This document shows positions 30,501 to 59,000 of a stretch of 64,000 nucleotides of DNA, piece by piece. Origin of the DNA: Styela clava (taxonomy: Eukaryota); assembly GCF_964204865.1 (NCBI RefSeq), contig NC_135260.1, positions 15,834,478-15,898,477 on the forward strand, read 5' to 3'. The notes under the pieces are model-generated. The model saw only the letters and a list, made by a program, of their open reading frames with translations, did not search any database and was not told the origin of the DNA. A program made the position numbers and the translations under genes. Each line of letters opens with the position of its first letter. The stretch's first letter is position 1.

Positions 30501-33500
30501 ATGGCAACAGCAAAGTTGTCCTCTTTTCTAATATATAACCCTACTTATGGACCGAAAGAAGGCCAGGTTAGTATTACATGACATGTTTATTATGGTATTT
30601 ACAGTAATTAATATTTTTAAATATTGTAGTCTAGATTGGGTGTGTGCAACCTGTGGCCCGCAGGTCAAATGCGGCCCGCAAAGAAAAATTGTGTGGCCTG
30701 TGAAACGAGTTTTTCATTTAGTTTAATCTGTTTTTTGTGCCTTCAACTATTAGATAGCCTATGTTAAATAAAGGTGCAGTGTGCGGTTTCACCCAGTCAT
30801 TTGCATCTGGCCGGCCCTCCTGTATTAAAGGTCGCCCACCCCTGTTGTAGATGATTGCCACTCATGCACACCTTAATCCAAATCTGCTTTTCCGGGATTT
30901 GAAAGTTTAGGCATTTGATCATTCAGTAATAGTAAATCTCATCAGGCTATATGTGTATGTACAGGTTTAGTGAATAATTCTGTACCTGGCGGGAGATAGT
31001 AGCACTGTTGAATAAGACAAGCCTAGGCAATGAGCATATTATATCTTGGCAAATGTTCATATTTACCATCCAACTGAGTGATATCCTAGTCATGTGATTT
31101 TATTTGCACAACCAGGCAAACAAAACCAGAATCCATCCTCAGTCTGTTTGTTTATTATCATATTGTATAATGCTTGTGGCAGTGCCCTTTAAAACCGATT
31201 GAACATTAGATTTTGCTCAATGGTAAATATCACTGTGAAAATATTTTCCAATGTACCTGTAAGTGCAAACACCTCATGGACAAATGTGCGAGATACAAAT
31301 ATATATATAGCCTACAGTATATCTAGGTTACAAATTTATCATAAGTGAATTAAACTAAGTAGACTAATAATTGCTTCAAACACTAAACGTTGTTCTCATT
31401 TTAGGAACATTTGAAAGTTTTGTTCTACTATCCCGAATCAGAACATCCCGATGTAAAAATAAATAAAGTTGGATTATGTGAAGCGCTGATTCAATTTGCT
31501 AAAACTTATTCATCAAGCAAACCATGCGAAACTCTTCATACTCAAAAACACAAGCAAGTATTTTATGAAGCGGAGGAGAATTTTTGGTTTGTCATGGTAA
31601 TAATCTTATTTACATTGTTTCAACTATAAATATATATATTTATAAGTTGTTTTATTTGACACGAAATGCTTCTATGGGAGATGGGATCCAAGGCGGCAAT
31701 ATGCCACTTAAAATTTTGCTGTTTTATTTTAATTATTTGGAACACATTTTTTAATGCCATGGGAATGTTTCTGTCTCACTCCTCTGAAATGAATTGAACT
31801 ACAATCAATTATTACATTTCATTTCAGCAAACTTGGTTCTTAGTTATCGACACCAATGCATGACCTTCATGTTCATATATTTTAGAATTGTTCTTTTGTT
31901 TATACTTTACATGTAGGCGCTCCAGAAGTGTGTGTACCAATATGAAGGTAACTAATTTTGTTCGCCTATTTTATATCAAGTTGTGTAAAGGGACTGAAAC
32001 CTATGGGCAGGTGGTATATTCACTTGGCTCACACAGACAGTCCCTGAACTTGTAATAGAACTAAAATAAGGGAAATTAGAATAAAATTATGGCCTAACCT
32101 TAGTCGGGCTGGTACAGCTGGTACACCTAGCCTACTACAGAAGTACCAACATATATTCCACAAATCTATATATTATCTTTTTCATGTAGGCCTACTAAGA
32201 ACTTAACTGTCTATTTAAAGCCAATGTGAATCACTTACTACAAACATTTTTAACTGGATAAACAGAGTAAAATATTTGGTTTAGTTGTCTGAAATGAAAA
32301 ACATTATTTTATGATTCATAATAGTATTTCCCAAAACTAAATAACATGGAGGCACCCCATGTAATAAGCTTAACTTCCAAGCACATTATTGCTTTTTTGA
32401 AAATGTTAAGAAGGATTGGAAATTTGTTTGTTCATGTCATTATATATTCAAGCAGGGCCATTTAAATGAGATTTTTCAAGTTGCCATTGAATCTTAGGGA
32501 GAAGGTGGCCATTTTACAAGACCCAAAATGTGAACTGGTAAAGTAAGTGGAAGGCTTTGTTACTGAATTTGTGCTTTTCTATGGTAAAATTCATATTTAT
32601 TTTTCGGTACTCCCGTAGTGTGTGTACCAGGTTAGGGTTAGGTCATAATTTTAAACTGATTTTGCTCATTTTAGTTCTATTACAAGTTCGGGGACTGTCT
32701 GTGTTAGCCAAGTGAATATACCCCCTAGTCCATAGATTTCAGATCCATAATACAAGTTGATGTAAAGTAGGCGAACAAAATTACTTATCTCCATATTGGT
32801 ACACACACTTCTGGAGCGTCCATTTATCACTGCCCGTTTTACAATTAACACTTATTTTGTAGACAGTATCAAACCCATGGAAAGAAACAATGCGAGATGG
32901 AAAACCAGTTAGAGAATATTTTGAGGAAAATATTAGGAGTGTTGTTTTGAAATCTGTACTGGAGCAAGCTTATTTTATGTTCAAGGTACATTTCTTTGAT
33001 ACAGCAGTATATATGGTATAGCACAGTATAAGCATATCAAACAAATGAAAAACAAAAATTATGTAAAATATTTAATCAAGCATGATTCATGCTTCACTAT
33101 ATCACTTACTCTATATAATTTACATGAAGACACAAATAATTGATTCCAATGGTAACATTTTTAATCAGCAGGATATAATATGATGCAAAATATTAGGCAG
33201 TGTCTATTAGGGCCACAGGAGAGTACATTCTCTCATTGTAACTAGTTATCCTTGATTATCATCTTTTTAGGCTGAATATAAAGTTTTGTCTGTTCTATGT
33301 CTTTTGTTATTTTATTTGCCATTTGAAGAAGTATTTACTGTTATACTTTACTGGTGTTTTTCAGCTTTTTATGGGAACCATAGAAAATATTGTCGCCAAT
33401 GAGGACATTGAACATTTGAAAAAAAAACTTCAAGATTTTTATTTAAAGGTAAGTAAATAAGTGAGTATGGTTGTCTCGAGCATGTGTAAACATCATGTTT

Positions 33501-36500
33501 CTACATGAACATGATGTCATCACATTTGCTACTTTTCCATAGTATTCATATTCAAGACAATATTAATGTAAATTATTTGTGTTTCAGTATCTTCCAGACA
33601 TCAATATTCATCACTGTGATATACTCAATGTTCATAATGGTGAGTACTTATATAAATCTTTCTTACCTACTGTTCATGACTTAGATTTATTCTTATGTGT
33701 GAGGCTTATATTGTCTTGTATACACAAAACTTGAACTTTGGAATTAGGAACCTGTTATACTGCGATTTAAAGAGGACATTGACATTTTAGGTTCATAAAT
33801 GTCACTTACACTTCTCATGAATTGAGTTGATGTTATCTCGTAAAAAAAATTTTGGACTGTGAAGATGCAAGTTTTGTTAACATTTACAATCTATTTCTTC
33901 GCATAAAACAACATTTGCACCCTTAATAATAGACCTTAATAATTAGTGTGTGAGTAAAGTTGAATGGTACATAAACTAGTTATCTTAATTTTCAGGAATT
34001 GATTATTTTCCATTGCAAAAATCAACATATTTGAAGATTCAATCTTTTATCAATTCAATAAAATCTAATTTTCCTTCCATTCAACATGTGATGGCACTCT
34101 ATGCAGATAAACTGATTTGGTGAGTACAGAAAAAGTTGTATTTATATGATGAATAGTACAGTAGGATTGTAAAAAGGCAAACATGAGTTATTAAAACAGT
34201 TGTGCACTCGAAATGAGAGTCTTACTGTTTCTAGAAGTTTGTATCACAAAAAGGCCCCTGTTTAATGAAACAACCAGAAGCAAATCCTTATCAAATTAAT
34301 GCTTGGATTGCTAGTGAATATACCAATAGGTTTCAGTCCCTTTAAAAAACTTGATGTAAAATAGGCGATCAAAATTAGTTAACTCTATATTGGCAGACAT
34401 ACGTCTGGAGCGCCCAAATTTCAATACAACAACGCTCTTAATATCTTTTCAATCTTTATTTAAAGCACCATGAGATGTTTCTTTTTTCAAGTATAATTTT
34501 GTAAAAAATATTCTTTTTCATTTTAAGGAGTGATTTACAGAAGACTGATTCCAGATATTTATATTCATATCTTGTTAACAAACTCCTACCCACGTCATCA
34601 GAATTTGAAAATAGTGTTATAAGTAATTATTTAACAAGAGATGGAAGTTATGGAAGGTGAGAAATGAAGTTAATAAATCATGAAGAACCCAGAATTTTTT
34701 TTATACTCCTACAATAATGAAGAAAATTTACATCTGTTTGTGTATATTTGTACCTGAAAGTTTCAGTAATTCGAGATGCTTTGCACAAAATGTTCTCTCT
34801 CAAACAGGGGTGGGCAAGGTTTTGGACCAGGGGCCAAATATTTTGCCCACCTGGATTGGCGGGCCATGCGAGTGTGACGTAAAAAGTTACATTTTATAAA
34901 CAATATTTACAGTATTACAAAAACAAATGCGGAAAACAATATGTGCCTTGTGCCAAAACTAAATTTGATCGCAAACATCAAAAATTGGTTTTAGTTTGGT
35001 TGTGGGAGCATCAGGGGGGCCCAACGGGCCAGATTTGGCCCACAGGATTCAGTTTGCCCATGTCAGCACTAGACATGTTTCAAATGATCTGTGTTTTGTA
35101 GGTCACTCTGTAGATGATTAAATTTGCATTTTTTCGTAAAATTATCTTAGTTGAAAATTGTCATATTTTATGTTATTTAATTCTAAGCTGTGAAGTTTCA
35201 CGATTTGTTTATACTGACACACCCTAGAACCAAGTGATTGAACCATATGCTTCGTTGCATTGGTGAATTTTTTGAATCTGTCAAAATTGTATTTCAGATA
35301 CCGGTATGTGAACAATAAAAGAAATACGTTTCTTTCCAAACTAATATCAATTTTGTTCAGGTTTCTTGCTGGTGTTCGTTATTATGAACATTCAACAGAT
35401 AGACATACCACTACTGTTTATATCACTTCTACTTCCATGAAAGGGGAAAAATTATTCATGGTTACTTATCAGGTAGTATTGAATTTATTTATTATCAAAA
35501 ATCTTTAATATTCACTGCCAAGAAATATTTATATAAATAAAGCTAGGCTAACATTGTCTTTGTTTATTATTTACGACTTACGCCATTTGGATTTATTACT
35601 TCACAGTGTTTAATGGATTTTGCTGAGGTCATCTTTTTTCTGGTCATCAAATTTTGAGACATTTTTGTTTTTAGGTTCTTAATATCAGCATGACACTGTT
35701 ATTTGAAGGTATGTATACCTATTTATAATTATTATTCAATGATTATGTTCTTACAGTGGTTTTTGTTTGGAAAAATTATCCCACCATTTTTATACTTCCA
35801 GGTGAAACTCCACCATCTGTTGATACATTCAGAAAACTAGATTCTTTCATGGGAAAAGCATTGATTGATCTTTCTACTGAAATGGAAGTAGTCCCTATGA
35901 AAAATTCTTATGACAGGTACGCAGAAACTTTGAAATTGTGATAATATTCCTCTTCTTAGTCTTCAAACAAAACACTTAGGTTCATACTATTTTAAAATCT
36001 TAAAGCTTCTATTTCACCCTGGATTAAATAGGTGGGTAGCATGGGGTTTGAACTTGAGAACAGTGGTTCTCAAACGGAGGGCGCCCCACAAAGGTAGGGG
36101 CGTGGATACTTTTTGATGGGCCGTGAAGCTAATTAAAAATATTTGTTAGATTTGATCTTGCCTGCCTTATTTTGGATATTTATATATTTTTTATTATATA
36201 CACATATTTTTAACCTGTTTTTTGAATAAAACATACTTTCACCTTACTATCTGTTATTTGTAGGTTATTGTAAGCTACTGTATTTATTTTTGAGGTGGGG
36301 CGCGAGACTTGACAAATTCTAAAAAGGGGACGCGGCTTAAAAAGTTTGAGTACCACTGATCTAAAATCATCAACTCAGGGTCGAGAGAAATTTAATAAAG
36401 ACTTTTTTGTCTGTTGAAAATGATCCTTCCTGAACTTCTGATTGGAAATATTGACTTGAATTATCACCAATAAAAGTATGAAATTTCGAATCCCGCTTCG

Positions 36501-39776: not shown

Positions 39777-39857
39777 TTAATGTAGCCTTGTTAGTTCTTC
39801 AATAACTTTGATAATATCATCTGCCGTTGCATCTTTCATTATTCCACCTTCTTTTAT
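39777..39857 (-). CDS. DDB1: DNA damage-binding protein 1, terminal coding exon (last 26 codons + stop)
   Basis: Acceptor tttttcag, then IKEGGIMKDATADDIIKVIEELTRLH and stop TAA; aligns to the human DDB1 C-terminus ..[26 protein letters not shown]. Joins in phase 0 to the donor CAA|gtatga at 46854. Confidence 0.8.
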   Translation of the reverse strand: MKEGGIMKDATADDIIKVIEELTRLH

Positions 39858-42210
39858 CTGAAAAATCGAACAGATTTCAAATTATGATAAAATAGACAAT
39901 TTAAATAATATCTAACCCATAACAAAAAATAAGTAACGGAATAGCATAAATTTTGAACATTTCGTCAACATATTATAAATTTGGATCTTTTGGGTTTTAT
40001 GCTCCGGATTCATTGTGAACTTTGGCATCGTTTTTAATAACAGTGATTATTTGGGTCATAAACAGACCTGGGCTCTACAAAAATTGGGTCGATAGCCAGT
40101 AAAGAAAAATTTTCAACTGACTAAGTTCCGGGGTGAAATACAGCTTATTACACCATTGCATATTTCAATCCACATTTAGATATTATACATTCAAACGTCA
40201 AATAAAAATTCCCAATAAATTATCTCCTACGTCAGTGGTTCTTAAACTGGGTTCGATCGAACCCCTGGGGTTCGGTGGAGCTGTTCCAGGGGTTCGACGA
40301 AGGTGCTCTGAAACAGTTGCATATTATGAGACTTTTTTATCACCCTGCATACTAATTATGCAAAAATAACTATAGTTCATGATGACTAATTACTAATGAC
40401 TTGAACAATTGAATGGAACAATTAATTGGTGTTACCAGTGTTCACTATTAGCGCACTTTTTTGCGAAAATTGCGAAGCACTTTCGCAACTTTTTTTAGGG
40501 ACTGCGAAATAGCACTTTTTTCCGATTTTGAGGAGAAATAGCACTTTTTTCCGATTTTGAATGGAATAAAAATTCAAAGTTAACAAATATTTTCGAGTAT
40601 TAAAGTGACAAATAAGTAACATACTAGTACTTTTGTAACTAAATTTTGCATATCATAACGATATTTACCGGAATTCTAACCTATGAGATGCAGACATAGG
40701 AGATAAAGCTTTTGCATTAACTGCAAAATTCTTGTTTATAATATGATTATTATACAAGCACACCGAATCCGCTTCTCCCGCAAAAACGCTCCGCGTCTTT
40801 GAAACCAGATGTTGGAATACTACACAGTGCGTTTCTTTGAACGAGAGTGGTCATGTGACTATCAATGAGATCGTTGAATTCAAAATGACTATAAAAGTGT
40901 TAGTAAAGTGTTATAGTCACTTTGGATGTATTGTGACCAAGGTGCACGATTTTCAAAACCTTTAGCAGCATGTCACAGATTTGCAAAATCACCAAATTCA
41001 CAAAATACCATTGAGTGCCATTTTATTGTAATCACAATGTTGAAAGCATGTGGCATTTTGCGATATTTACACAACTCTTTCTCGTTGATATGCGAGTATG
41101 GGTGGGCAAAATTCAATATTTTATTGAATTGAATATTTTCAACGAGTACCGAATAACAAATATTTTTGGAACGTCCGTGGAAACATTAAAAAATCGGCAA
41201 CAAAGCCTTTTTACTGATTAATTCCGTTGTAATCGCTAATTGTTCTTGTCACCGATCGTTTTGGCGGCGATATCCAGGTTTTGTTAATCTATATTCCCGC
41301 CCTCTCTTTTTTACAAATATGAATTCTTGCGGGTCGGCGGACATCGAAGTTTTATATTTCGGGTTTACCCGTTTGTTCACATCGGCAACAGCTGTTGAAG
41401 ACATTGAGGACTCAAATTAACATTTGCGTTGGCTTTAATATTACCTATCAAGATTTGTAAATTTAGGGTCCCAATTTTATGCGAATGGTAATATTATTGT
41501 CGATACCATAATGCTGATATTTATTAAGACGATAATTAACTTTCTCATGTTTTTCTATGGTGATAAACTTCACAAATCTGAAATTGTGCCAATCCTGAAT
41601 GTTGATTTAAAATAGAGATTGAATAATTCGGCAATAAAGGCATTTCTGCGTGGTCATAAGACGAGATGACGTTAATGAACAGCACTTCTTTTACAGGATA
41701 TTTTACGTAAGCGACTTAATGCTAAAAAGATTGGACTCGAGTGCTTTTTTTCGAGTGCTCGAGTGCCTAATGGAGGTACGCTAATTGTAACTAATTTCCT
41801 CAAGTTTCAACATGTTTTCAGCAAAACAATATCCCGGCGATAATTATAGCTAAAATGTTACCGAGCAATTCACAATTTTATTTATGGAATTTGAAAATTC
41901 ACCAGTTTCTTGACGATATTGATAATGTCACGCCCTAATTATTAGTGCAAAAAATACTCCCCTTCTTCCGCGGCGGTTTGACGGGTTCTTTGTTCCAATC
42001 TTCAGAAATTTCTGACACGGGGGGATATAGAATACTGAATCCGGAGGGTTCAATCCCTGTCGACTTACTGGTGATTTTCCGTTTCGGAATGCGTGGAACA
42101 TTCTCTATTTTAAATTAAATGACGTTTCGCGGGCTAGAGTTCTACCCGAAAATGATGTGTACCAGACGTTAGTTAGACGATAGATAAAACATTAGATAAA
42201 TATATTTCAT

Positions 42211-42612
42211 GACGCCCCGTTTTCGAAAATACAAAATTATATCGCAAAAAATGCGTTTCGATACATTTGGAATGAACATTATTTACGGTTTTTTCAGATC
42301 ATATTTTACTCTTCATGACACCCGGTATCCGAAAATACAGTTGTATTGCGAAAAATGTGTTTTGTTACATTTAAAATAAAACATTTTTGCGATTAATTTA
42401 GATCATATTTTACTTTTCAGGACACCCGTTTTCGAAAATACAAGGTTATATCGCAAAATGTGTTTTGTTACATTTAAAACAAAACATTTTTGCGATTAAT
42501 TTAGATCAAATTTTACCTTTCACGGCAATCCGTTTCCGAAAATACAAAGTTATATCACAAAATGCGTTTTGTTACATTTATTTTGCATTCCCGATAAAAT
42601 ACATATTTTCCC
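42211..42612. repeat. Tandem array (about 3.8 copies of a roughly 104-bp unit) inside the hAT-B element
   Basis: Repeating gacacccgttttcgaaaatacaa.gttatatcgcaaaatgtgttttgttacatttaaaacaaaacatttttgcgattaatttagatcatattttacttttcag. A single related unit occurs at 3360-3470 in hAT-A. Confidence 0.6.
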
Positions 42613-44439
42613 TAATTAAAGTCGTCGATGAATCTGTTCCTGTCGGTCAAGCTTGACATACGTTTGGACGAGTGTGGGGCGGTTTTTTGGTCGACGATAA
42701 ATTAAAAAGTTGCCACACGTTATTTGTATAACGATAATAACTGAAAAATTAGATTTTATAATGGAAGTGAATTTGTCTTAAGATGGTATTTTACGATTCT
42801 TGCCCACAGAAAATAAACCCGCTGACAGGCTTGGTTATAATTGATATTCGTTTAATTTATTTTACACTATATTAATAAACGCGCCACACCAAGTGCGGCC
42901 ATATAAATTGCAGTCGCATCGGTATGGACTGTATGTTTTTGGCGCTCTCACATTAATTATAATTTTCAACAAAACAATACCCCGGCGGTCATTGAAGCTG
43001 AATTCGTTACCGAGTAATTCACGATTTTATTTACGGAATTTGCAATTTCAAGATCTCACTTGACGATTTTGATGGTGTCATGCCCTAATTATTACTGCTT
43101 CAATGCCTCAAAATACAACAAATGTAATCATTTTCGACGATAACAGGCGCAACAATTCGTAAACGAGCCGTTATAACGAAATTCGCGATTGATTTTACCT
43201 CTCTCTTGTTTACAATTTTAACATCCCGCCGGCCATGTATGGTCGAATAAAATGTTCACATATTCGAAACATGACTTGGCCAAAGGATGGAAGTGATCAC
43301 TAAAGAGCTAATAGAAAGTACATACGCGAGGGTATGATATTAATATCGAGAATATTTGTGAGCATATCACAGGACGGAAATATTTTGCACCCGGCTGTTT
43401 GTTGGCAGAACAACGATACGCTAAAGTTAATTGATCGAATACAGGGAAGTATTTATTTATCATCTCACTTGCGAACATCGAAGTTTGGGCGGAATTGTAC
43501 GATCATGTTGTCTTTCTTAAGTAATAACTTTTTCAATAAATGTTCATTTTACTTTTGGGTCTTTATTATATGTCCGGGTTTTCGTTAATTTTAAATTCGA
43601 AATTGTCCGAAATACTCCAACAGGTGTATAAGTACAATAATAATAGTACTTACCAAAGTACTTACCAGGGAAGTTTAATACACACGATGTGTTAATGGCG
43701 TCGTAACTGCCGTTTTTAATTTGATTGTTTTACATTCTGCTTAAAAAACAACGTCGTTTTGCAGTCATCTAATGTAAATCTCGCGACCAAATCTTTTTTG
43801 TTTTGTATGGCATCGTCTTGGCGACGAATTTATTGCCGACTGAATTTTAATTGTGTTTTAGGATAAGTTATTTTCTGTTTGTTGGTTTCTAAACTTTACA
43901 AACGTGGGTAGCAATTACTATTAATGTGAGATTTGTGCATATGAACGATTGAATATCGCGACTGGCTGTCCGATATCTGAGAATGCGTATATCAGCGTTC
44001 ATGTGGTCGAATAAAAATTATTTATCAAATGGATTTCGAGACACTCTCAAAATTATTTGGGATCCACTATCATATCATTCGTTTATTTTTTATATTCAGG
44101 TTTTTTTCAAGAATCACCCTCGTTATATTTCGTGTACCTTCGCAAAAGAAAACTCTTTGGTGTCATCGTTCCTATTAGTGTAATTGAAATATATGGAAAC
44201 CTCGCAAGTGGCGTTGTGATGCGAATATTTGATACTAGGTCAGCAGCATTACAAAGAGTGCTATTTATGAATGCTGAAAGTACATGGCATTACTAAACAT
44301 TTTGTCAATATATGATGTTTTCTGCCTGATTTAAACTAACTCCACGCAAACCAAGGCATGTCGACATTTAAAAATTACTTGTCTTTGGGTAAGCTCTGAA
44401 ATAGTATAATATAAATGTAAATGAGAAATTAGGTCACGC

Positions 44440-44630
44440 TAGCTCACGAAACGGGAGGATTTTCAAAGTGATCTTGTGTAATATTTCGGAGAAAAAAGTT
44501 TGAAAGGAAAGTAGGTCAACCTATCTCCTAAAACAGGGGAGTATCTTGCGTAATATTTCGGAGGGAAGGTAGGTTAACCTATCTTTTAAAACAGCGGGTG
44601 GCGACTTTCAAAGTGGTTCAAAATCACAAA
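44440..44630. repeat. Degenerate tandem repeat of about 60 bp inside hAT-B
   Basis: gtaggtcaacctatctcctaaaacaggggagtatcttgcgtaatatttcggagggaag followed by gtaggttaacctatcttttaaaacagcgggtgg...; then an inverted TTAGGTTTAGGG/CCTAACCCTAA pair and a G11 run at 44735-44745. Confidence 0.4.
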
Positions 44631-45952
44631 TTAATAATTATCAGATTAGGTTTAGGGATAAATCGAAAAGTTGAATTTCCAGCGCACCTAACCCTAATTA
44701 GTTGATTGCTATTTATATTTATTATATTTGGGGGGGGGGGATTATTTTGCACGGGATTTGTACAAATGATCCACCCTGTAACTAATATGGTTTCCAGCCT
44801 ACGTCGTTGTCTGTTAGATGGAAGGAGTAACAAATGTGAAAGCCTTTGCTGTTCACACGAGTAAGCAACTGACACCGTGATACATTGCATGAAAATTTTG
44901 TTCGCGGCAGGTGTTAGCAGATGTCCTTTTGTTGCCGATGAATTCGCTTGTTTTAATTAAACATGAATTCGCTTAAAGGGAACTCGGTTAACGGAAAGGC
45001 TTCTCTTTAATTCATAATATTAACCGGAGGAGCGCTTTTTCGATTATCTATGCCGTTTTAAATGGGTTATATGAAAGGCTAGAGCACCTAACTTGTTAAA
45101 ATCGGCAAAAGCACTTTCGCACTTTTTTTTTCCGACTGCGAAGCACTTTCGCACTCATAATTCGCTTAGAGTTAACACTGGGTGTTACCCTTATTCATAT
45201 TCTACCGTACTAATAAAATTCAACTCAATTTTACGGATAAATCGAAGATAGGCAGTAATTGTACATGAATGAATGCAAAATCATATCGTGTTTGAATTTC
45301 ACTAGGTGATAAATTTGCGACAAGGAATAGTTTATCGCAGAGCTTTACCCGAAATTATTATGATCCATTCAGGACAACCTCGATATGGCGCCGAATTAAT
45401 CCTATGTCTATTTCTGTAAAATAAAACAATTGGCAAACGATTTTATTCGCATTTCAGCGCAGTTTAAAGTTTGAGAACAAATTGCTTGAACTACCAACGT
45501 TTATGGGGTATATTATCATCTTTCGGATTTTCAAAGTTATTTTTTATCAGTTTTCGCCTGTTCACCCGCATAACTTATACAACAAAAACCATCTGCTCAT
45601 TCTGCCGCCAACGCCATTGTGACAAAACAATGGTTATCCCCACATGGTTATTGATATCTAAGGTTTCATCACAATGTTCATATTCTATAACCTTGCAAGA
45701 ATTAGCTTCCGCTTTATGACGTTACGGTTTGGCTTCTAATTTCAACCGTTCAGTACAATATGGGGTTCGGCGGGAGCTTGCAGAATAGCGCAGGGGTTCG
45801 GCAGGCTCACAAAGATTAAGAACCACTGTCCTACGTACATTGAAAAGAAAAAATACGGCAAACAAAAATTCACGTAAGTCGGCCAGCAAACAACAGAAGT
45901 TCCAAAAAATGGGAACTGCAAACTTCCAATATTTGATTCAATTACATGTCTA

Positions 45953-46643
45953 TGGTGGCCCATCGTTGTCACGTGTAAAATTTAAAAAAAAAATGAAAAA
46001 ATAAAATGAAAAAGCGAAAATAAAAAAATAGTTGTGAAAAAACATGAAAATAATTGAAAAAAAAAAAAAAAAAAAAAAAATAAATTAAAAAAAAAAATTG
46101 ACAAATAAAACAAACAAAAAAATTAAAAAAAAAATTAAAATTAAAAAAAAAAATTAAAAAAAAAAAAAATTTGAAAAAAAAATTGGATAAAAAGAAAATA
46201 AAAAGGTTGACAACGATGGTCCGCCTCGTGGCCCATCGTTGTCACGCGTTTTTATTTTTAGAAAATTTGATGCTGCTTGGGACCAACGTTGTCAGACTTA
46301 ATCCTACACACTTAATCCTACACGCACAAATGTGTTTCCTGGGTTTCCTGGGTTTTCCAAGCAAAAGCAAAGTTTCTAAAAATAAAAACGCGTGACAACG
46401 ATGGGCCACGAGGCGGACCATCGTTGTCAACCTTTTTATTTTCTTTTTATTCAATTTTTTTTTTTTTCATTTTTTTTTTTTTTTTTTTTTTTTATTTATT
46501 TATTTTTTTTTAATTTTTATTTTTTTTTTTCATTTTTTTTTTAATTATTTTTATGTTTTTTTACAAAAAATTTTTTATTATCGGTTTTTATTTTATTTTT
46601 TATTTTTATTTTCAATTTTACGCGTGACAACGATGGGCCACCA
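45953..46643. repeat. About 690-bp foldback palindrome with A-rich and T-rich arms, inside the last DDB1 intron
   Basis: 22-mer cores GGTGGCCCATCGTTGTCACGYG at 45953-45975 and 46211-46250, mirrored as CGCGTGACAACGATGGGCCACC at 46381-46430 and 46621-46643. A-rich arm 45976-46210, T-rich arm 46431-46620, about 130 bp unique centre at 46251-46380. The mirror-image ORFs 46171-46395(+) and 46242-46454(-) are an artefact of the symmetry. Confidence 0.8.
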
Positions 46644-46853
46644 TACATGTCCAACATTCTAAAACCAAGCAGAATGCTTGGCAACCCCCATATCAATTTG
46701 GTAAGTCATGACTATATAAAATTCAATTGTGTAGTTAGAGAAAAGGTACATTAGACTCGAAGCCATTTGAAAAATTTCACAGTAAATACAAACAGCTGTG
46801 GAAAAAAAAATCCCTTTAATGGAACCTGTCATATAAAAAAGTATAAATCATAC

Positions 46854-49800
46854 TTGTATGCCTTGGGCGACAGAGTCCATCTTTTCCCTAGGCAGATCCA
46901 AGAAATTTTCTATAAGGTCCCCATCTATAAAGCCTTTGTGATCACTTGTAACTCTGTCATTGGTAAATGATCGCCAAAAACTGTGATCAATCTTCCCCAC
47001 TCCTTTGATTAATTTTTCCAATTTTTTTTGGACTTCACCCAGTAAATGGAATATTTCTGTGTTAAAGGTAGTAATGACGCCTATACTTCCATGTACAGTT
47101 CCAAACAATATACTGCCTTGCGTGGGAGTTGAAGTCTCGCCGAGATGTTGCATTACCAGTGTTCCATGTTGAAATACATTTACCATATCCCCAAGATGAA
47201 ATGAGCCGGTTCCAATTAGTTTTGATGTATCATCATCGTTAGCAGTTGAACTATCTTTTTGACAAACAAAAAGATTGAAGCTGTTGTCAGCACCTATGAA
47301 GTTATCATCATCAATGATTTCAACTGCAGTCATCCAGTTTGGCTTATAATCTTTTGCTATTTCATCTAAATTACCTTCGATGGCTTTGTATGAAAGAACG
47401 CTCAGTGATCGCATAAGGTCGCCTACAAGTACAAAGTCTCCTTTTGTTTTTAAAAATAGAGCAATGATGTTACCTTGATGACTGCAATCAACAGTCAGAT
47501 CTTTTTCCTCGGTCCATTGATACACAATGACTGAACCATTAATACTTGCAATAATTTTTTCATTGAAATTTGATAATGTATAAACGGCTCCTCGTACCTC
47601 TTTCTCAGAAATTTGAGATAATTTTCCATCAAATACTTGAAATACAAGAATTCGGCCCTGCTTAGGTTCTGGCTCTTCTGGATATACGAAAGCAGTACCA
47701 ACAACAAAATAAGATTCTGCTCCAATATTGCAAGATATTATGCTGCAAGGCCACTCAAATGGAGCAAACTGATGCGCATGGTGAACCTCGAATGTATGTT
47801 GATCAATAATCAACAGGTTACCAATCTCTGTATCATCTCCGTACATGTTGGCGTCCATGCTTGGCTGACGATATTTTGTGCTTGTATCTTTTGTGATACT
47901 GTTGGCCTGCAAGCTTGCACATAATCGTGTTGTTGGTTTTGAAGCTTCCAATCCTATAGTATCATAGCGAAGAGTGGTCACACCGAAACACTGGCTCTTT
48001 TCCTGGTATGCTATTCTCCTTGGAGATTCATACAATGGCACAGTGCGAATATGCAGTTTCTGGATTTCATCAATTTTTCCAATTAGTAAGACATTATCAT
48101 TAGCCAGTGCTAAACTGTCAGGATATCCTTCAGAATCTAGAGCACACATGTAATTAACTTCACGTAAATTAACATTAGAAAACACAAGCTTGTGATTGGA
48201 ACTGTAGATTACCGTTGGCCTGTCGGAACATGAAAATACATTGAGTGACCCGCCAGAAAGAAAAGTGTGAAGCTCTGTAGGCTGGGTACCAAGAGGGACT
48301 TTCTTTCGTTCGCCCAAACCACACAAATCCTCATTAATCGTGAAGTAAAACAACATGCCATCTCCGAGAGTGACAAGAAGATAGTCAATTCCTTCAAATT
48401 TAACCATCAAAACAGATCTAGGGATAATTTCACCACCTAACATTTGTGAATGTTTTTCTTCTAATCCAGGCATAGCAAGAAGATGAACACTGTTATCATT
48501 CCACAAACCAACTGCACATAATTGAGCTTTTGCTGTTTCATCTGTTGGATTCAACACCAGAGGATTGACATTTAAGCAAGCGACTTCTTCTGGCATCACC
48601 CTCTCGGAGCGCAGAATCAATTCGCTTGATCCCACTTCTAAATGATAAAGTTGACTCCCAACTGCAACGACAATCTGTGAATAATTACATGTTGCATTGC
48701 TAATATTTCCCCTTGGTGGGGACCACTCTGCAACCAACTTTTTCATCTTCCTTGAAATCAATCTAATTCCTTCTTCAGTTATTTGTACAACTTGATCATT
48801 CAAGACATTCGAGCATAAAAATGTCTGTTGTTCATCGTCAAAACCACCAAATTCAGATTCCTCTATTTCTTCACCACTGAGACGCAAAATTCTAGAATGG
48901 CCGACAAAAGACAAAATCAGTGTGTCAAACTTAGATGAATCAGAGAACAGTCGAAGCGGCCATAGTCCTTTTATACCAGGCAAGTCAATGCTTGCATGCT
49001 CCTGGATTCCAATACCATTACGAATGATTCTCAGTGATCCTTCTTTAAATGCCCCAGAACAAGTAACTAGTTGCCCCTGACCTTGTCTCTCCAGATCTAC
49101 AACACACATGTCGACAATAGGGCCCAAATTTGTATAAGTATCGAGTATTGAAATATAAGAGGATGATGAATCTCCTTCTCCACTTGTTGGAGTCGTTTCA
49201 AGACGAATTAGCTGAGAATCTCCAAGCCTTGATCCAATATAAACCACACCATTGTCAAGATAAGAAAGGCATTCGGGTATGTTCACTTCACCCATCAATT
49301 CGATATGCAAATCTTTGACGGAAACATTTTCGTCTATTTTCTCTTCAGTCTCAACATGGAGCATAAAAAGTCTTCCAGCCATATCACCAAGAAGATAACG
49401 ACAGTTGTCCACACGAGCAAAGCAAGATACAATATTTTGCTTGATCATTGGAGGTGCAATTAATTTAGCCATTCCATCGCCGCTATGATACATTATAGAT
49501 TCCTGCCCCACAACCAGAGCTCCATTTAACGGGGCAGGAACAGGGATAATAATAGAAGCTTCTGTGTCTACATTTTCTTGTTGCCATGACCCAAGTTTCA
49601 CTTCCTTGTCTCGTATATTGATTTCATAGGTTTTAATATGCCGCCCATGTGTATTGTGGTATATGATAGCCACGGTTGGAACATTGTATCCATGAAGAAA
49701 TTGGGCATCAATCACACTCAATTCATCCATTCTAACATTGAAAGGGCGCAGTTCTTTGCTGGTTGGATCATAAGGCAAAATTTTAAAGACACCTTCATAC

Positions 49801-50204
49801 AATCGAAGACCAATTATTTTGCATGTCGGATCTATAAATCCAAGTATACCAGTTTCAGGTGGCCGACCTACAGGATCAGTTACCAATCCACTTGCTTTTG
49901 TTTTGACTTGACAGCCTTGTTCACCGGCGCAATATTCCAAAATCGACGCATTATATCGTTCAGTTAGTACAAACAATAGATCTTTTGGTTCACCTGGAGG
50001 TCTAAACAACTTCAACACAGCAATTCTTCCATAAATATTCATTTCTGTAATTGGACGAAGTCCTTCACTGGTGACTGTATATATTTCCAAACGTGTGCTT
50101 TTAGCAATAAGTAAATTCATGTCATCAGGACTTGTGAAGTTACCAGTTATACAAAAGTGAACTGCACTCGGCTTGTGAGCTGTGACGACATAGTTGAACG
50201 ACAT
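46854..50204 (-). CDS. DDB1: DNA damage-binding protein 1 (CUL4 adaptor; three WD40 beta-propellers), main exon coding residues 1-1117
   Basis: A continuous 1118-codon minus-strand ORF. N-terminus [42 protein letters not shown] against human [42 protein letters not shown]. Colinear over the whole length (..[29 protein letters not shown]). The ORF's own last codon and stop are intronic: a donor gtatga follows CAA at 46854-46856. Confidence 0.95.
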
Positions 50205-51314: not shown

Positions 51315-52539
51315 TAATGTCTGCTGTATTTTACAATATTTGGCAGTAGAACCTTATTTCACCCGGGCCTGATATATATACTTTATATTAATATATCTAC
51401 TAAATCTCTAGATTTGAATATAGAAGTGACAATAGACGATGTGACGACAATCCAATAATGTGTTTTTGTCTTGTCAACATGCAACTATAAGCTACTGTAA
51501 TCTTGCCTTTATTCGTCTCAGAAACGAAAGTATTGTATCAGCAAGTAATGCACTCCGCTTCGCTATTAGTTTGATCTTTTCTGAAGCATGGATACTTCTG
51601 CTTTAGTTCTTGGGTGTAAAAACGTTCTTGGGTAAAAAAGGTTTTTACTGAGTCCACTGACGTAACTTTCTGCCAAAATCGAAACTTCACCGAATTGCTA
51701 AATACAAATGAAATGACGTAAAAATAATTGCAGAATAACACAATTTTTCGCGATGAACGACTATGCAAAACAGGTATGCATTTATCCTAGGGCAGTGCTT
51801 CTTATCTCTTTTGCGGGTCTGCCGAACCTCTCCGCTGTTGTGCAAGCTCCTGTCGAAGCCCATTCAACGGTTGAAACCAGGATCGCAATCAGAACTTCAA
51901 AGAACGGTAGCTAATTTTCTGCAAGGTTCGCGTCCAAAACCTCCAACTGCATCCGGAGCGTTGTTTTTCACAGATTTTTGCAGAAATCGACATAGCCTAC
52001 ATTATGAACTAGTGCCATTTTAATACGAGTTTTAATGAAACGTACTGAATTCAAGACTGCAAGATGTAACGGTCATTGACATGACCAGTAAAACATAGGG
52101 TGGCTTACCCACTTTGCGGCCAAGACCTATTTGCGACCATCAACTTCAACGATTAATTTAATGCCGAAAAAATTAACGAACAGAGATGATATTTCTCGCG
52201 CGTTATCGTCCACTTATCCCTCGTAGCTCTGCGAAATTACACTAAAATGCGGCCACAAACAAAAAAGTTACGACCGAAAACCCGACCGAAGAAAATAAAC
52301 GGACCATTTTTCCATGTCGCCAAATACCCATTGTCCCTTTGAAAAAGCTTATATAAGAGATGAAAAGATGAAACTTGGCAGGTGGGTAGAGTTCTGTTTC
52401 TTTTAACCATCTTTAAAGTTTCGCATTTCTACATTTAAAGGAGGGGGAGTAGGGGGACGCATTTCCAATACGTCGATAATAGCATTGTCGACCAATTTGC
52501 GACCACCGTGTTTTTGTTTGTTTGATTGCTGTAATGCGG

Positions 52540-55539: not shown

Positions 55540-56000
55540 TTTAAAGCATTTTGTATTAGCTCTTTAGTGATCCCTTCCGTCCTTAGCCAAGTAATGTTTC
55601 GAATATATAAACATTTTACTCGACCATGCATGGCCGTTAAGCCAAGAGTTAGAACGTAATATCAATCGAGAATTTCGTTGTAACAATGCACACTGATTCG
55701 TTCATGACTTGTTGCGTCTATTATCGTTGAAAATGATTACAATTGTTAAATTTTGAAGCATTTGGGCAGTAATAATTAAGCATCAAGGCATGACATAATC
55801 AAAATCATTAGGTGAAGTGCTGAATTTGCAAATTCCGTAAAGAATATTGAGCGTTACTCAGTAAGTATTTTAGATATAATAACCATCGGGGTGTTGTTTT
55901 GTTGAAAAAAAATGTTAAAACTTGAAGGAATTAGGTATAGTTAGCGTCTGACCCTCTATTAGGCACAAAAGCCTAGGAATGCCTTTATTGCCAATTTATT
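55540..56000 (-). mobile_element. Fragment (inverted) of the internal module of the hAT-B family, no termini
   Basis: The reverse complement of 55540-55900 aligns to hAT-B 42990-43320 (gttaccgagtaattcacgattttatttacggaatttgcaa...ggtgtcatgccctaattattactgc...ggccatgtatggtcga.taaaatgtt.a.atattcgaaacat.acttggc.aag..ggaag.gatcactaaagagctaata.aaa). 55860-56000 aligns to hAT-B 41620-41860. No TIR was found nearby. Confidence 0.5.
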
Positions 56001-59000
56001 TAATCGCTATTTTAAAACAACATTCAGGATTCACACAATCGTAAGTTCGCTAGGTTTATCTATCTAATGCTAAAATAACACGAACACCATAGAAAAGCAT
56101 GAGAAACTCAATTATCATTTTAATAAATATCTGCATTTCGGTTACCGTTCACTTTAAACAGGCACGGTTAATTTACAACCGATGATAAGAAAGATCAAAT
56201 CCAAGGCAGAGGATAAAACTCAGAATAAAATTAATTTGGTTTTGACATCAGCCCTTAATGTCTTCAACAGCTGTCGCTGATGTGAAAGCAAGGGTATACT
56301 AGAAAATGAAAACTTCGATATCCGGCGGCCCCCTTATTCTTGCAAAAAACGAGAAAGAGCAGGAATATAGAATACCAACTTTAGGATATCGCCGCCGAAA
56401 CGATCGCGGTGACAAAGACAATCAGCGATTATGATGAAATTAACCCTCAACAAGAAAAACAAAACGCTTTATTGCCGACTTTATATTAATTTCCAAATTG
56501 AGTATCACCCCCCGACGTTCTGGATCCCTGCTATATATAAAAAAAATATATATATATATATATTTATCATTCGACTGTTCGGTATTTGGTAAAAATATTC
56601 AAATTATTCGATCCGTAAAAAGAGACGATTTTGCCCACCCTAGACTAATAGCCATTTATTTTGGCTTTGATTTCTAATAAGTTTGTCAAAGCGGGTCGTA
56701 ATCGTGGAGGATGCAATGTGCAGTAGCTGCTTGAGATTATCGCCAAATATTTCGGGACTATTTTTGATTACTGGAACAAAATTAAAATGCTCTAGAAATT
56801 AATAAAATCATTGAGTTATTTGATTTATACATAATATTCAGAAATGCGACAAAAACTGAAAACCCCCGAAAGCAAGCCAATAATGATTACAGTCATGGTT
56901 AAAATCTTTCCAAGTGAAAAGTGTCGGAGTGGCCGCGAAAATGCTTACAGTTGCGTCACTATTGCATCTTGTATAGATTAGTCAACGCTACGCAAATAAG
57001 CACGGCGGAATCCATTCGACTAACTAATACACTTAACACTTCCACATTTTAATTTCAAGTCAATGATTAGTTTTCAATTAAAATTTTTCTTTGAAAAAGA
57101 ATTCATTTTCAAGGCATTAACAAGAGCCGCAGGAAAGGTTTGTAGAATCACTGATCTAGACTGTCCTTCAGCAACTTGACACTGTAACTACTGGACGGAC
57201 TCCCGCAATGCCAGCAAAATGTCATACCAGAGTGTTAACTTGAATCGTAAAATGAAGATCAGAATTATTATATCACGCATAGATAGGGTTACCATATTTT
57301 TGTCGATTTTCAAATCGAGACGCCTCGAAAGACAACGACCCATTAGCTGTGATTTTGTAACTGACGTTGACGATTGTAATTGACGTTAACCGTTACCGGT
57401 ACAAATAATTCGAATTTAGACTAATCAGTATTAGTTTTACATGTGATACGTCTGCCCTCAATGGGAATCAGAGGGAAACGAACGCATTCACCTTCAGTAA
57501 GAAGGCTAGCGTTCTTGTTACAACAGTAACAAGAACATGTTTGTGTATTATGCTGGAAAAGCGGGACTTTTGGCTGACTTATCGGTACGGCGGGACAAAA
57601 CGCTGAAAAGCGGGACGTATGGTAAGCCTACGCATAGACATTGTCATGTATTGCCATGATGTATTATTTTACGTTTTATTTTATAAAAATACAATAAAAA
57701 AAAAGATCAGAATTTCAAAATCACGTTATATAATCTAGTTCGAATATTGGCAATTTTTTAAAAATAAATAAAAATGTATAAAACTTCTCCCATAGAAGTG
57801 AATTCACGAATTAAGGTAGCAATGCATAATTTATGGTTAAATATCGGGCCGCGTGGGAACCAGAAATAAGAAAAGCAATATTCTTCTAGTCATATTTTCA
57901 ATATCAACTTATTGTTACAATAAGTTTTCAATTTTTATAAAATTTCCAATATTCGAAGTTCGAAAAGGCTCAGCAGGTTTCGCTCAAGAGACGTGAGATT
58001 TTATTATTTTATAATCAAGAGGGCAAACTGAAGTTTTTTACGAGACTCGAACCAAAGCCTTTTGAATTTGGGGTATTCTGACAGCTAATATATATGTCTT
58101 TGTTTGTCAAAATAACATACATATGTAAAGAGAAAGGAAGAAAATAGAAAGCAAACTCCTCCCCAAAAACGACAAAATTTTTCCCTGTAGCATTGCCAGA
58201 TTTATAGTAGTATGACCGACCGCTCCTGCCTGTATAGCGCCTTGCCCTGAGCCCCTTATAATAAAGGGCAAAATATCAACAGCTTTATGATGATTGGAGA
58301 CCCAGACTACACGGAATGGGTTATGCTGTTCTATGCATGCACTGTATGCTTTAGGGAAAAGGCTTTAATTTTAATCTCATTCGTTTCAAATAATTTATTC
58401 AACATATTTATGACTGTTCAGAACAAAATATTTAGATTGATTTAAAATTATTTATATATATAATATTTGATATTATTATACATTTTTAATTTTGGGAATA
58501 ATTTAAATTTAGGAATTTCTTTAAATTAGTTCCAATTTCTCTGTTGAATATGACCAAATTTGAACAGATTGCAAAATTCACAGGTGATTGATTCATAGTG
58601 TTTTTACTGAATTTTATTGTTTTCATGACGGTGATTAAAATCAGTATAAAATCGGGATGATTTGAGACAAAAAATAGCCTAGTATGCGTCATTTCACTTG
58701 TAAGTAAAGTAAACATGTTACATCCATCAATAGGCAGGCACAGAGATATTCTAACCTAGATTTGTAAAGTTTGCTGTCATTTCTAATAATGCAACGATAT
58801 CATTTGAAGATATTGGTATGTATTTAATCCACTACCACGACCTTTGCAACCTGATCTCGGGCCGGCTTATTTTTTTCAAGCGTCCTATTCTTCGTTCATC
58901 AGTTTTCTAGTATCGAGTATAAATATTCAATAATCACAGGCTTCCTATCAGACATAATGTTTGATTGTTCAATATTTTCACCGTTCAATGTACACAGGGC

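What the first reader, a model, noticed from the sequence alone, without database searches (positions are those of the whole stretch)
45953..46643. Large perfect-core foldback palindrome with homopolymer-rich arms just 3' of the main DDB1 exon
Four copies of a 22-bp GC-rich core (GGCCCATCGTTGTCACGCG) are arranged as outer and inner inverted pairs. They enclose an approximately 230-bp A-rich arm and an approximately 190-bp T-rich arm around a roughly 130-bp unique centre. This is the structure of Foldback-type elements or secondary-structure-prone fragile sites. It lies about 200 bp from the 3' end of the 3.35-kb DDB1 exon, inside the intron that must be spliced out. Such a hairpin could affect transcription elongation or splicing, or mark the breakpoint of the rearrangement that separated the last exon.
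Basis: seen in the sequence. Interest (0 to 1): 0.55.

Follow-up and report, generated by a model that had tools for sequence, protein, structure and literature searches.

The report
Foldback-type transposon in DDB1 intron
The palindrome is real, but it is an ordinary non-coding "foldback" DNA transposon copy sitting harmlessly in the last, ancestral intron of the sea squirt (Styela clava) DDB1 gene, and it does not mark a rearrangement.

Summary
Window 45951-46645 is a 695-bp inverted repeat. It has two ~330-nt arms and a 76-nt asymmetric loop. The motif CCATCGTTGTCA occurs seven times, all inside the element. Single-strand fold z-scores are about -30.

The window is Styela clava: the exon is 1117/1117 identical to XP_039272966.

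The element is flanked by a perfect 6-bp direct repeat, CATGTC. A second copy lies at an unrelated locus in an ENA metagenome contig (L013). It has the same order of cores, and its homology stops exactly at ...GGGCCACCATA. That copy is a longer palindrome, so the window copy looks like a central-deletion derivative.

I conclude it is a non-autonomous foldback-like (long-TIR) DNA transposon. The repeated 17-21-nt core is most likely the transposase-binding site. The superfamily is unassigned.

The host intron (39858-46850, GT..AG, phase 0) sits at the same position as in Ciona and Clavelina. The 26-aa last exon (39780-39857) completes the annotated 1143-aa protein. The "rearrangement breakpoint" idea is therefore not supported, and nothing indicates that splicing is disturbed.

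Verdict: a new member of a known kind, of low interest.

The parts
45945..45950 (.). Left copy of the putative 6-bp target-site duplication, CATGTC
   Evidence: Read directly from the sequence. It is identical to 46646-46651 and lies immediately outside the point where homology with the second copy (L013) ends.
45951..46645 (.). Whole foldback-like non-autonomous element (695 bp), TATGGTGGCCC...GGGCCACCATA
   Evidence: Inverted-repeat alignment. Fold z about -30. The ends are defined by L013, whose homology reaches window 45951 and 46645/6.
45955..45975 (+). Left terminal core, GTGGCCCATCGTTGTCACGTG (17-mer at 45957-45973)
   Evidence: It has one C>T difference (CpG to TpG) from the other three copies.
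45976..46202 (+). A-rich arm segment (75% A) made of degenerate tandem units of about 13 nt (AAAAAAAAAATGA/TTA)
   Evidence: Composition. TRF reports periods of 13, 22, 29-30 and 55-56 at 64-83% matches.
46203..46249 (.). Left inner local palindrome: variant core (-) at 46206-46222, a CTC spacer, and core (+) at 46230-46246
   Evidence: The local DNA hairpin folds at -17.9 kcal/mol, z = -6.9.
46250..46280 (+). Innermost part of the left arm, still complementary to 46357-46387
   Evidence: (I1).
46281..46356 (+). Asymmetric loop. It is a single copy of segment 'P', which is present in both arms of the longer L013 copy. It holds a degenerate core (CCAACGTTGTCA, 46283-46294) and two small tandem duplications (46296-46323 and 46334-46355).
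   Evidence: L013 carries the unduplicated versions of both duplications.
46357..46387 (-). Innermost part of the right arm
46388..46434 (.). Right inner local palindrome: core (-) at 46391-46407, a GAG spacer, and variant core (+) at 46415-46431
   Evidence: The hairpin folds at -16.3 kcal/mol, z = -5.0.
46435..46619 (-). T-rich arm segment (78% T), the complement of the A-rich arm but 42 bp shorter
46621..46641 (-). Right terminal core (17-mer at 46623-46639)
46646..46651 (.). Right copy of the putative target-site duplication, CATGTC
46851..50204 (-). Host gene: the large DDB1 coding exon (codons 1-1117). The GT donor is at 46850-46849.
   Evidence: It is 1117/1117 identical to Styela clava XP_039272966.
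39858..46850 (-). Host intron (6993 nt, GT..AG, phase 0) that contains the element
   Evidence: The intron position is conserved in Ciona and Clavelina.
39780..39857 (-). Last DDB1 coding exon (26 codons, IKEGGIMKDATADDIIKVIEELTRLH). The stop codon is at 39777-39779.
   Evidence: tblastn and the sequence itself.

Best explanation
Window 45951-46645 is one copy of a non-autonomous, foldback-like (long terminal inverted repeat) cut-and-paste DNA transposon family of Styela clava. It inserted into the last intron of DDB1 and duplicated the 6-bp target CATGTC.

Each arm carries the same 17-21-nt GC-rich core three times:
- once at the very tip;
- twice about 250 bp inward, as a head-to-head pair.
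Between them lies an A/T-rich stretch prone to replication slippage.

Inferred, not shown: the cores are binding sites for a transposase supplied in trans. The tip cores would define the cleavage sites. The inner paired cores would act as accessory sites that give specificity and help the two ends synapse, as described for Galileo and for IR/DR-type elements.

The window copy is a shortened derivative of a longer palindromic form. A central deletion removed one copy of segment P and an extra ~445-nt arm segment, leaving the 76-nt asymmetric loop.

The element is transcribed only as part of the DDB1 intron. There it would fold into a ~300-bp A:U-rich hairpin and be removed by splicing. It is most likely neutral for the gene.
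For: Shown:
1. The inverted-repeat anatomy and motif enrichment are far beyond chance.
2. There is no ORF longer than 76 aa and no Rfam family match.
3. The arms are built of degenerate tandem units and differ in length: 227 and 185 bp in the window, and about 220 bp in L013.
4. A perfect CATGTC direct repeat abuts both ends. The chance of this at a fixed register is about 4e-4, my own arithmetic from the local base composition.
5. An independent copy sits in a different flanking context, contig L013 from ENA assembly ERZ26858995.
   - I found it by searching translated core peptides.
   - It has the same order and orientation of four cores.
   - Its inner cores and terminus are identical to the window's in the alignment.
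   - Its homology ends exactly at ...CCACCATA.
6. L013 positions 1-430 are an imperfect inverted copy of positions 460-895 (410 matches, 16 mismatches, 4 indels). This includes 12 nt of segment P. Family members are therefore size-heterogeneous palindromes, and the window's loop is one surviving copy of P.
7. Context: 46.7% of the S. clava genome is repeats and 23.8% is DNA transposons. Genes tend to have one large intron.
8. The binding-site role of repeated motifs in long TIRs has precedent in Galileo (PMC3688188). Foldback structure is a recurrent, polyphyletic TE form (PMC4079207).
Against: - Only two copies could be examined, and only one has both ends, so the TSD rests on a single insertion.
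- No autonomous partner or transposase was found, so the binding-site role of the core is inferred from arrangement only.
- The species of origin of L013 is unknown. It is a metagenome contig with 33.7% GC.
- A TA dinucleotide also flanks TGGTGG...CCACCA at all three available ends. A TA-target (Tc1/mariner-like) reading therefore cannot be excluded from the boundaries alone.
- The scans of JGI metagenome, viral and prokaryotic genome contigs gave no relatives. The representative-protein search gave no further copy.
Confidence: 0.85

Rival explanations
1. It is a mobile element of a TA-targeting Tc1/mariner-type family with an IR/DR-like architecture. The true ends would be TGGTGG...CCACCA, the TSD would be TA, and the outer and inner cores would be direct repeats within each arm.
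For: All three available termini are followed by TA. The outer and inner cores of each arm are in direct orientation and 273 bp (left arm) and 232 bp (right arm) apart (families D6 and D8). From general knowledge, this resembles the IR/DR organisation of Sleeping Beauty-type elements.
Against: The empty site would have to be ...CATGTC-TA-CATGTC.... That is a pre-existing 6-bp direct repeat at exactly the right register, with a chance of about 1/2500-1/4000. The termini do not start with the CAGT typical of Tc1-like elements (recalled from memory). Each arm also carries an extra inverted core that IR/DR elements lack.
Confidence: 0.08
2. It is a locally generated palindrome, made by inverted duplication or template switching during replication or repair. 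It would be a potential fragile site but was never mobile.
For: It has palindromic structure with a small asymmetric loop, and the inner parts of the arms are near-perfect.
Against: A second copy with the same terminus lies in an unrelated flank. A perfect direct repeat flanks the window copy.
Confidence: 0.03
3. It is an assembly or sequencing artefact, such as a fold-back chimeric read.
For: None directly. Palindromes and long homopolymers are error-prone. Homopolymer lengths in the arms may be inaccurate.
Against: The arms differ by 24 substitutions and several indels, and they enclose a unique loop. The same architecture appears in an independently assembled contig.
Confidence: 0.02
4. It is a co-opted element. 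The intronic ~300-bp dsRNA hairpin would be a substrate for ADAR or Dicer. Alternatively, the A-rich arm, which carries 14 AAUAAA/AUUAAA hexamers on the gene strand, would promote intronic polyadenylation and so regulate DDB1.
For: The RNA fold is strong. Of the intron's 36 poly(A)-signal hexamers, 14 lie in the element, beginning 240 nt from the 5' splice site.
Against: I obtained no conservation, expression or small-RNA evidence. The annotated protein uses the distal last exon. AT-rich low-complexity sequence gives such hexamers trivially.
Confidence: 0.03

Closest known systems
Drosophila Foldback (FB) elements and FB-like families such as Tetris (D. virilis), Tm1 (Meloidogyne), TFB1 (Chironomus), sea-urchin TU and Arabidopsis FARE
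   Same: Nearly the whole element is two long inverted arms. The arms are internally repetitive and variable in length. The middle domain is short and non-coding. Copies are structurally heterogeneous, and most or all are non-autonomous (PMC4079207; window data).
   Different: FB and Tetris make 8-10-bp TSDs and are attributed to the Mutator superfamily. Here the best reading is a 6-bp TSD. The arms are A/T-rich slippage tracts bracketed by discrete GC-rich cores, rather than arrays of 10-220-bp repeats. I found no sequence similarity and no transposase.
Galileo (P superfamily, Drosophila)
   Same: It has foldback-like long TIRs carrying several copies of a short transposase (THAP) binding site. 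These are proposed to give binding specificity and a multimeric synaptic complex (PMC3688188). That is the mechanism I infer for the repeated core.
   Different: Galileo has autonomous copies with a P-type transposase and, from memory, 7-bp TSDs. Neither was seen here. Membership of the P superfamily was not tested.
IR/DR-type Tc1-like elements (e.g. Sleeping Beauty) and their MITEs
   Same: The inverted repeats are about 200-300 bp long, with an outer and an inner binding site in direct orientation in each arm. TA is present next to TGGTGG/CCACCA.
   Different: A 6-bp direct repeat flanks TATGG...CCATA. Each arm has an additional inverted core. There is no CAGT-type terminus and no similarity to a known Tc1 TIR. 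The comparison is from memory only.
Generic long-TIR MITEs of Styela clava
   Same: The same window holds another non-coding long-TIR element (31906-32818, arms of about 190 bp). DNA transposons make up 23.8% of this genome.
   Different: The sequence is unrelated, and that element has no A/T-rich arms and no repeated core.

Membership tests
Foldback-like (structural class) non-autonomous DNA transposon | Long inverted arms make up most of the element, with a short middle domain | tested here: met
   The arms are about 330 nt each and the loop is 76 nt, in a 695-bp element.
Foldback-like (structural class) non-autonomous DNA transposon | Arms are internally repetitive and variable in length between arms and copies | tested here: met
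   TRF finds degenerate units of about 13, 22, 30 and 55 nt. The A/T-rich segments are 227, 185 and about 220 bp in the three arms seen.
Foldback-like (structural class) non-autonomous DNA transposon | No coding capacity | tested here: met
   The longest ORF overlapping the element is 76 aa and is low-complexity. The translated ORFs found no protein family, only another copy of the element.
Foldback-like (structural class) non-autonomous DNA transposon | Target-site duplication at the ends | tested here: met
   CATGTC lies at 45945-45950 and at 46646-46651. This is a single insertion only.
Foldback-like (structural class) non-autonomous DNA transposon | Dispersed copies sharing termini, with structural heterogeneity | tested here: met
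   The second copy, L013:891-1258, has an unrelated flank and belongs to a longer palindrome. Genome-wide copy number could not be obtained.
Mutator/Foldback superfamily (Drosophila FB, Tetris, Tm1) | 8-10-bp TSD | tested here: not met
   The best reading is 6 bp and perfect. A 10-bp reading (TACATGTCTA/TACATGTCCA) needs one mismatch. It also puts the boundary 2 nt inside the point where the copies stop being alike.
Mutator/Foldback superfamily (Drosophila FB, Tetris, Tm1) | MULE-type transposase in autonomous copies | not testable with these tools
   No autonomous copy was available, and the S. clava genome could not be searched by DNA.
Tc1/mariner (IR/DR type) | TA target-site duplication | tested here: inconclusive
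   TA abuts TGGTGG/CCACCA at all three termini. The 6-bp CATGTC repeat would then be a coincidence of about 4e-4.
hAT-derived MITE | 8-bp TSD, and termini shared with a hAT transposase-bearing element | tested here: not met
   An 8-bp reading matches only 7/8 and is offset from the shared boundary. The hAT pseudogene in the window (24064-25682) has no copy of the core or terminus nearby.
Known RNA families (hairpin RNAs, miRNA precursors) | Match to an Rfam covariance model | tested here: not met
   The only hit was a chance match at E = 0.76, outside the element.

The most novel reading that the evidence does not exclude
The family would be a previously undescribed tunicate foldback lineage with 6-bp target duplications. 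It would be mobilised by a transposase class not so far linked to foldback elements, such as a 6-bp-TSD superfamily rather than Mutator or P. Its head-to-head core pairs would be the recognition module. In addition, its ~300-bp intronic dsRNA hairpin in DDB1 could be processed or edited.
Probability: 0.1. Interest if true: 0.45.

Novelty: new member of a known kind. Interest (0 to 1): 0.18.

Why it matters
It matters little for gene function. The finding resolves an odd-looking palindrome as a routine transposon insertion and removes the suggestion of a rearranged DDB1 gene.

It has modest value for transposon annotation in Styela clava:
- it gives exact termini (TATGGTGGCCCATCGTTGTCACG...);
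- it gives a candidate binding motif;
- it gives a likely 6-bp TSD;
- it provides an example of central deletion shortening a long palindromic element.

Such elements also contribute to the intron expansion reported for this genome. As long inverted repeats, they are potential sites of assembly error or instability.

Tried and rejected
1. Other copies in the 64-kb window: none. Only A/T low-complexity matches turned up.
2. A paralogous empty site in the window: none. The neighbouring ~145-bp dispersed repeat (45689-45833, matching 51788-51928) ends 118 bp before the element.
3. JGI metagenome scan with the inner-palindrome pattern: 8 hits. The three contexts I read were unrelated hairpins in non-A/T-rich sequence, consistent with bacterial contigs.
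4. Viral scan: 0 hits.
5. Prokaryotic genome scan: one chance hit in an alphaproteobacterial MAG.
6. Exact look-ups of window ORFs all returned nothing on record. These were the DDB1 exon, the 523-aa ORF at 28305-29873 and two ORFs inside the element. P0121 was also not on record.
7. The hAT ORF search, meant to fetch more S. clava DNA, returned only short ENA/Logan contigs, one 40-Mb fish contig and no Styela genomic loci.
8. The representative-protein search with P0139 found no further copies.
9. Literature searches found no prior description. I searched for the core sequence, for foldback with ascidian or Ciona, and for Cimi-1.
10. The Rfam scan was negative.
11. The bacterial promoter/terminator scan is irrelevant for a eukaryote.
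12. I noticed a resemblance of the terminus to part of the Drosophila P-element TIR (GGTGGTCCCGTCG). This is from memory only and was not pursued as evidence.

Full report
**Observation.** The region was read directly and analysed for repeats.
- The motif GGCCCATCGTTGTCACG occurs exactly four times: 45957+, 46230+, 46391- and 46623-. Two 3-mismatch variants (GGACCATCGTTGTCAAC) lie at 46206- and 46415+. That is 6 matches against 0.05 expected in shuffles.
- The 12-mer CCATCGTTGTCA occurs seven times with up to one mismatch, all within the element, against 0.24 expected. The seventh is a degenerate copy at 46283.
- A global alignment of the left half with the reverse complement of the right half shows the two halves are homologous along their whole length. 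It gives 294 matches, 24 mismatches, and gaps mostly in A/T runs.
- By segment, identity is 24/25 at the tips and 91/96 in the inner block. The A/T-rich part has 153 matches, 15 mismatches and 41 gap columns.
- The unique loop is 46281-46356, 76 nt rather than 130.
- As single-stranded DNA the region folds at -246.8 kcal/mol (z = -30). As gene-sense RNA it folds at -312.5 kcal/mol (z = -28.5).
The quoted core is 19 letters, not 22. The leftmost copy ends CACGTG.

**Host and gene context.**
- The 1118-codon ORF at 46848-50204 (-) is DDB1. A protein search placed it among tunicates: Ciona 64%, Phallusia 63%, and a best hit of 91%.
- The 90% cluster of that best hit contains Styela clava XP_039272966. 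This is 1117/1117 identical to the exon. The window is therefore S. clava.
- The ORF's last codon and stop (GTA TGA) are really the splice donor (CAA|GTATGA).
- The last 26 codons lie at 39780-39857, behind a canonical acceptor (tttttcag|ATA). Together the two exons give the annotated 1143 aa.
- I fetched the DDB1 loci of Ciona (L011) and Clavelina (L012). Their last intron lies at exactly the homologous, phase-0 position...GLM|VKEHG and ...NLT|IKEDG against ...GIQ|IKEGG here. It is only about 490 and 280 nt long in those species.
- The 6993-nt intron is thus ancestral and expanded, not the scar of a rearrangement.
- It contains other dispersed and tandem repeats. [quoted passage not shown]

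**What the palindrome is.**
- Both ends of the inverted repeat are flanked by the same hexamer...TTA[CATGTC]TATGGTGGCCC...GGGCCACCATA[CATGTC]CAAC.
- Because ACATGT is itself palindromic and TA/T overlaps occur, 8-bp (7/8) and 10-bp (9/10) readings were also possible. A second copy was needed to fix the boundary.
- DNA-pattern scans of the available collections gave only unrelated hits. The S. clava genome cannot be searched by DNA with these tools.
- I therefore translated the conserved core block in its open frames and used the concatenated peptides as a protein query.
- This found one ORF, P0139, on a 5.9-kb contig of ENA metagenome assembly ERZ26858995 (L013, 33.7% GC).
- L013:891-1258 is a second copy of one half of the element. 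In order it carries a degenerate core, a core, a variant core, a T-rich arm of about 220 bp, and a terminal core.
- The alignment shows its inner cores and its terminus identical to the window's right arm. BLAST aligns it to window 46347-45951 and to window 46357-46646.
- Homology stops right after ...GGGCCACCATA. The L013 flank (CTGTTGCACC...) is unrelated to either window flank.
- This has three consequences:
  - It fixes the element at 45951-46645.
  - It makes CATGTC the flanking duplication.
  - It shows that the sequence occurs at more than one locus.
- It also argues strongly against an in-situ palindrome and against an assembly artefact.

**Family structure.**
- L013 positions 1-430 are an imperfect inverted copy of positions 460-895, with 410 matches, 16 mismatches and four indels of 4-14 nt. 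The contig begins 12 nt into the inverted copy of the segment that forms the window's loop.
- The L013 member is therefore a longer palindrome, with arms of at least about 810 nt including an extra ~445-nt segment. It is cut by the contig end.
- In it, the 'loop' segment P of the window copy is part of both arms.
- The window copy retains one P, with two small tandem duplications that L013 lacks. Its right arm resumes at CCAAGCA.
- The simplest account is a central deletion of a longer symmetric ancestor.
- Together these features match foldback-type transposons as described in the literature, where the structure is held to have arisen in several superfamilies (PMC4079207). The features are:
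  - size-heterogeneous, internally repetitive, non-coding palindromic copies (no ORF above 76 aa);
  - arms built of degenerate units of about 13 nt;
  - arm lengths that differ between arms and copies.

**Mechanism (inferred).**
- Each arm carries a tip core, and about 250 bp inward a head-to-head pair of cores separated by 3 nt. Each pair forms a local hairpin (z = -5 to -7).
- Repeated short motifs in long TIRs were shown to be transposase (THAP) binding sites in Galileo. There they are proposed to give specificity and higher-order synapsis (PMC3688188).
- I infer the same role for the core here, with the transposase supplied in trans.
- The superfamily cannot be assigned.
  - A 6-bp TSD does not fit Mutator/FB (8-10 bp).
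  - It also does not fit hAT (8 bp), PIF or piggyBac (TSD sizes from general knowledge).
  - TA next to TGGTGG/CCACCA at all three termini leaves a Tc1/mariner IR/DR-like reading open. That reading requires a coincidental 6-bp repeat in the target, with a chance of about 4e-4.

**Effect on DDB1.**
- The element lies 205 nt downstream of the 5' splice site and far from the branch and acceptor region.
- On the gene strand its first arm is A-rich. It holds 14 of the intron's 36 AAUAAA/AUUAAA hexamers, which is trivial for such composition.
- No Rfam family matches.
- The annotated protein uses the distal last exon. A related tunicate transcript (P0001, 91% identical, species not identified) encodes the same C-terminus.
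- I found nothing to suggest a functional role. Fragility, editing, small RNAs and premature polyadenylation were not testable here.

**Verdict.** The 'foldback element' interpretation is right. The 'rearrangement breakpoint' and 'affects splicing' suggestions are unsupported. This is a new, apparently undescribed member of a well-known kind of element in a transposon-rich genome, and its interest is low.

Noticed in passing
window 39780-50204 (-); L011, L012: S. clava DDB1 has only two coding exons (3351 nt and 78 nt). Ciona has about 27 and Clavelina at least 23 (tblastn HSP counts). All coding introns except the 3'-most appear to have been lost. This is the opposite of the 3'-biased loss expected from simple reverse-transcriptase-mediated intron loss. 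It suggests replacement by a retrocopy of a partly spliced transcript.
   Followed up: partly
window 24064-25682 (-): There is a frameshifted hAT-family transposase pseudogene, as three overlapping ORFs with a hAT C-terminal dimerisation domain, in a GC-richer block at 24-28 kb. Its closest relatives are short ENA/Logan contigs at 52-85% identity. It has no copy of the foldback core nearby.
   Followed up: partly
window 31906-32818, and 34323-34424: There is a second, unrelated non-coding long-TIR element. Its arms are about 190 bp at 84-88% complementarity, with tips reading GGCGCTCCAGAAGTGTGTGTACC.... A third partial arm copy lies 1.5 kb downstream. The TSD is not clear.
   Followed up: partly
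window 45689-45833 and 51788-51928 (-): A dispersed repeat of about 145 bp (74% identity) has one copy 118 bp upstream of the foldback in the DDB1 intron and another upstream of the DDB1 gene. ARAGORN found no tRNA-like structure.
   Followed up: partly
window 41178-43317 and 55550-56495 (-); 42205-42680: The same intron holds two pieces (41178-41647 and 42963-43317) of a repeat also present at 55550-56495. It also holds a tandem array of about 106-bp period at 42205-42680. These account for part of the intron's expansion.
   Followed up: no
L013 (ENA ERZ26858995, ctg75086_3x_l), 1-895: A metagenome assembly contig carries Styela-like transposon DNA. Its first 895 bp form an imperfect palindrome centred near position 440, with a small hairpin at 400-465. 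The species of origin is unknown.
   Followed up: partly
window 28305-29876 (+): There is an intronless 523-aa ORF that looks like a multi-pass membrane transporter. An exact look-up found no record with this product.
   Followed up: no
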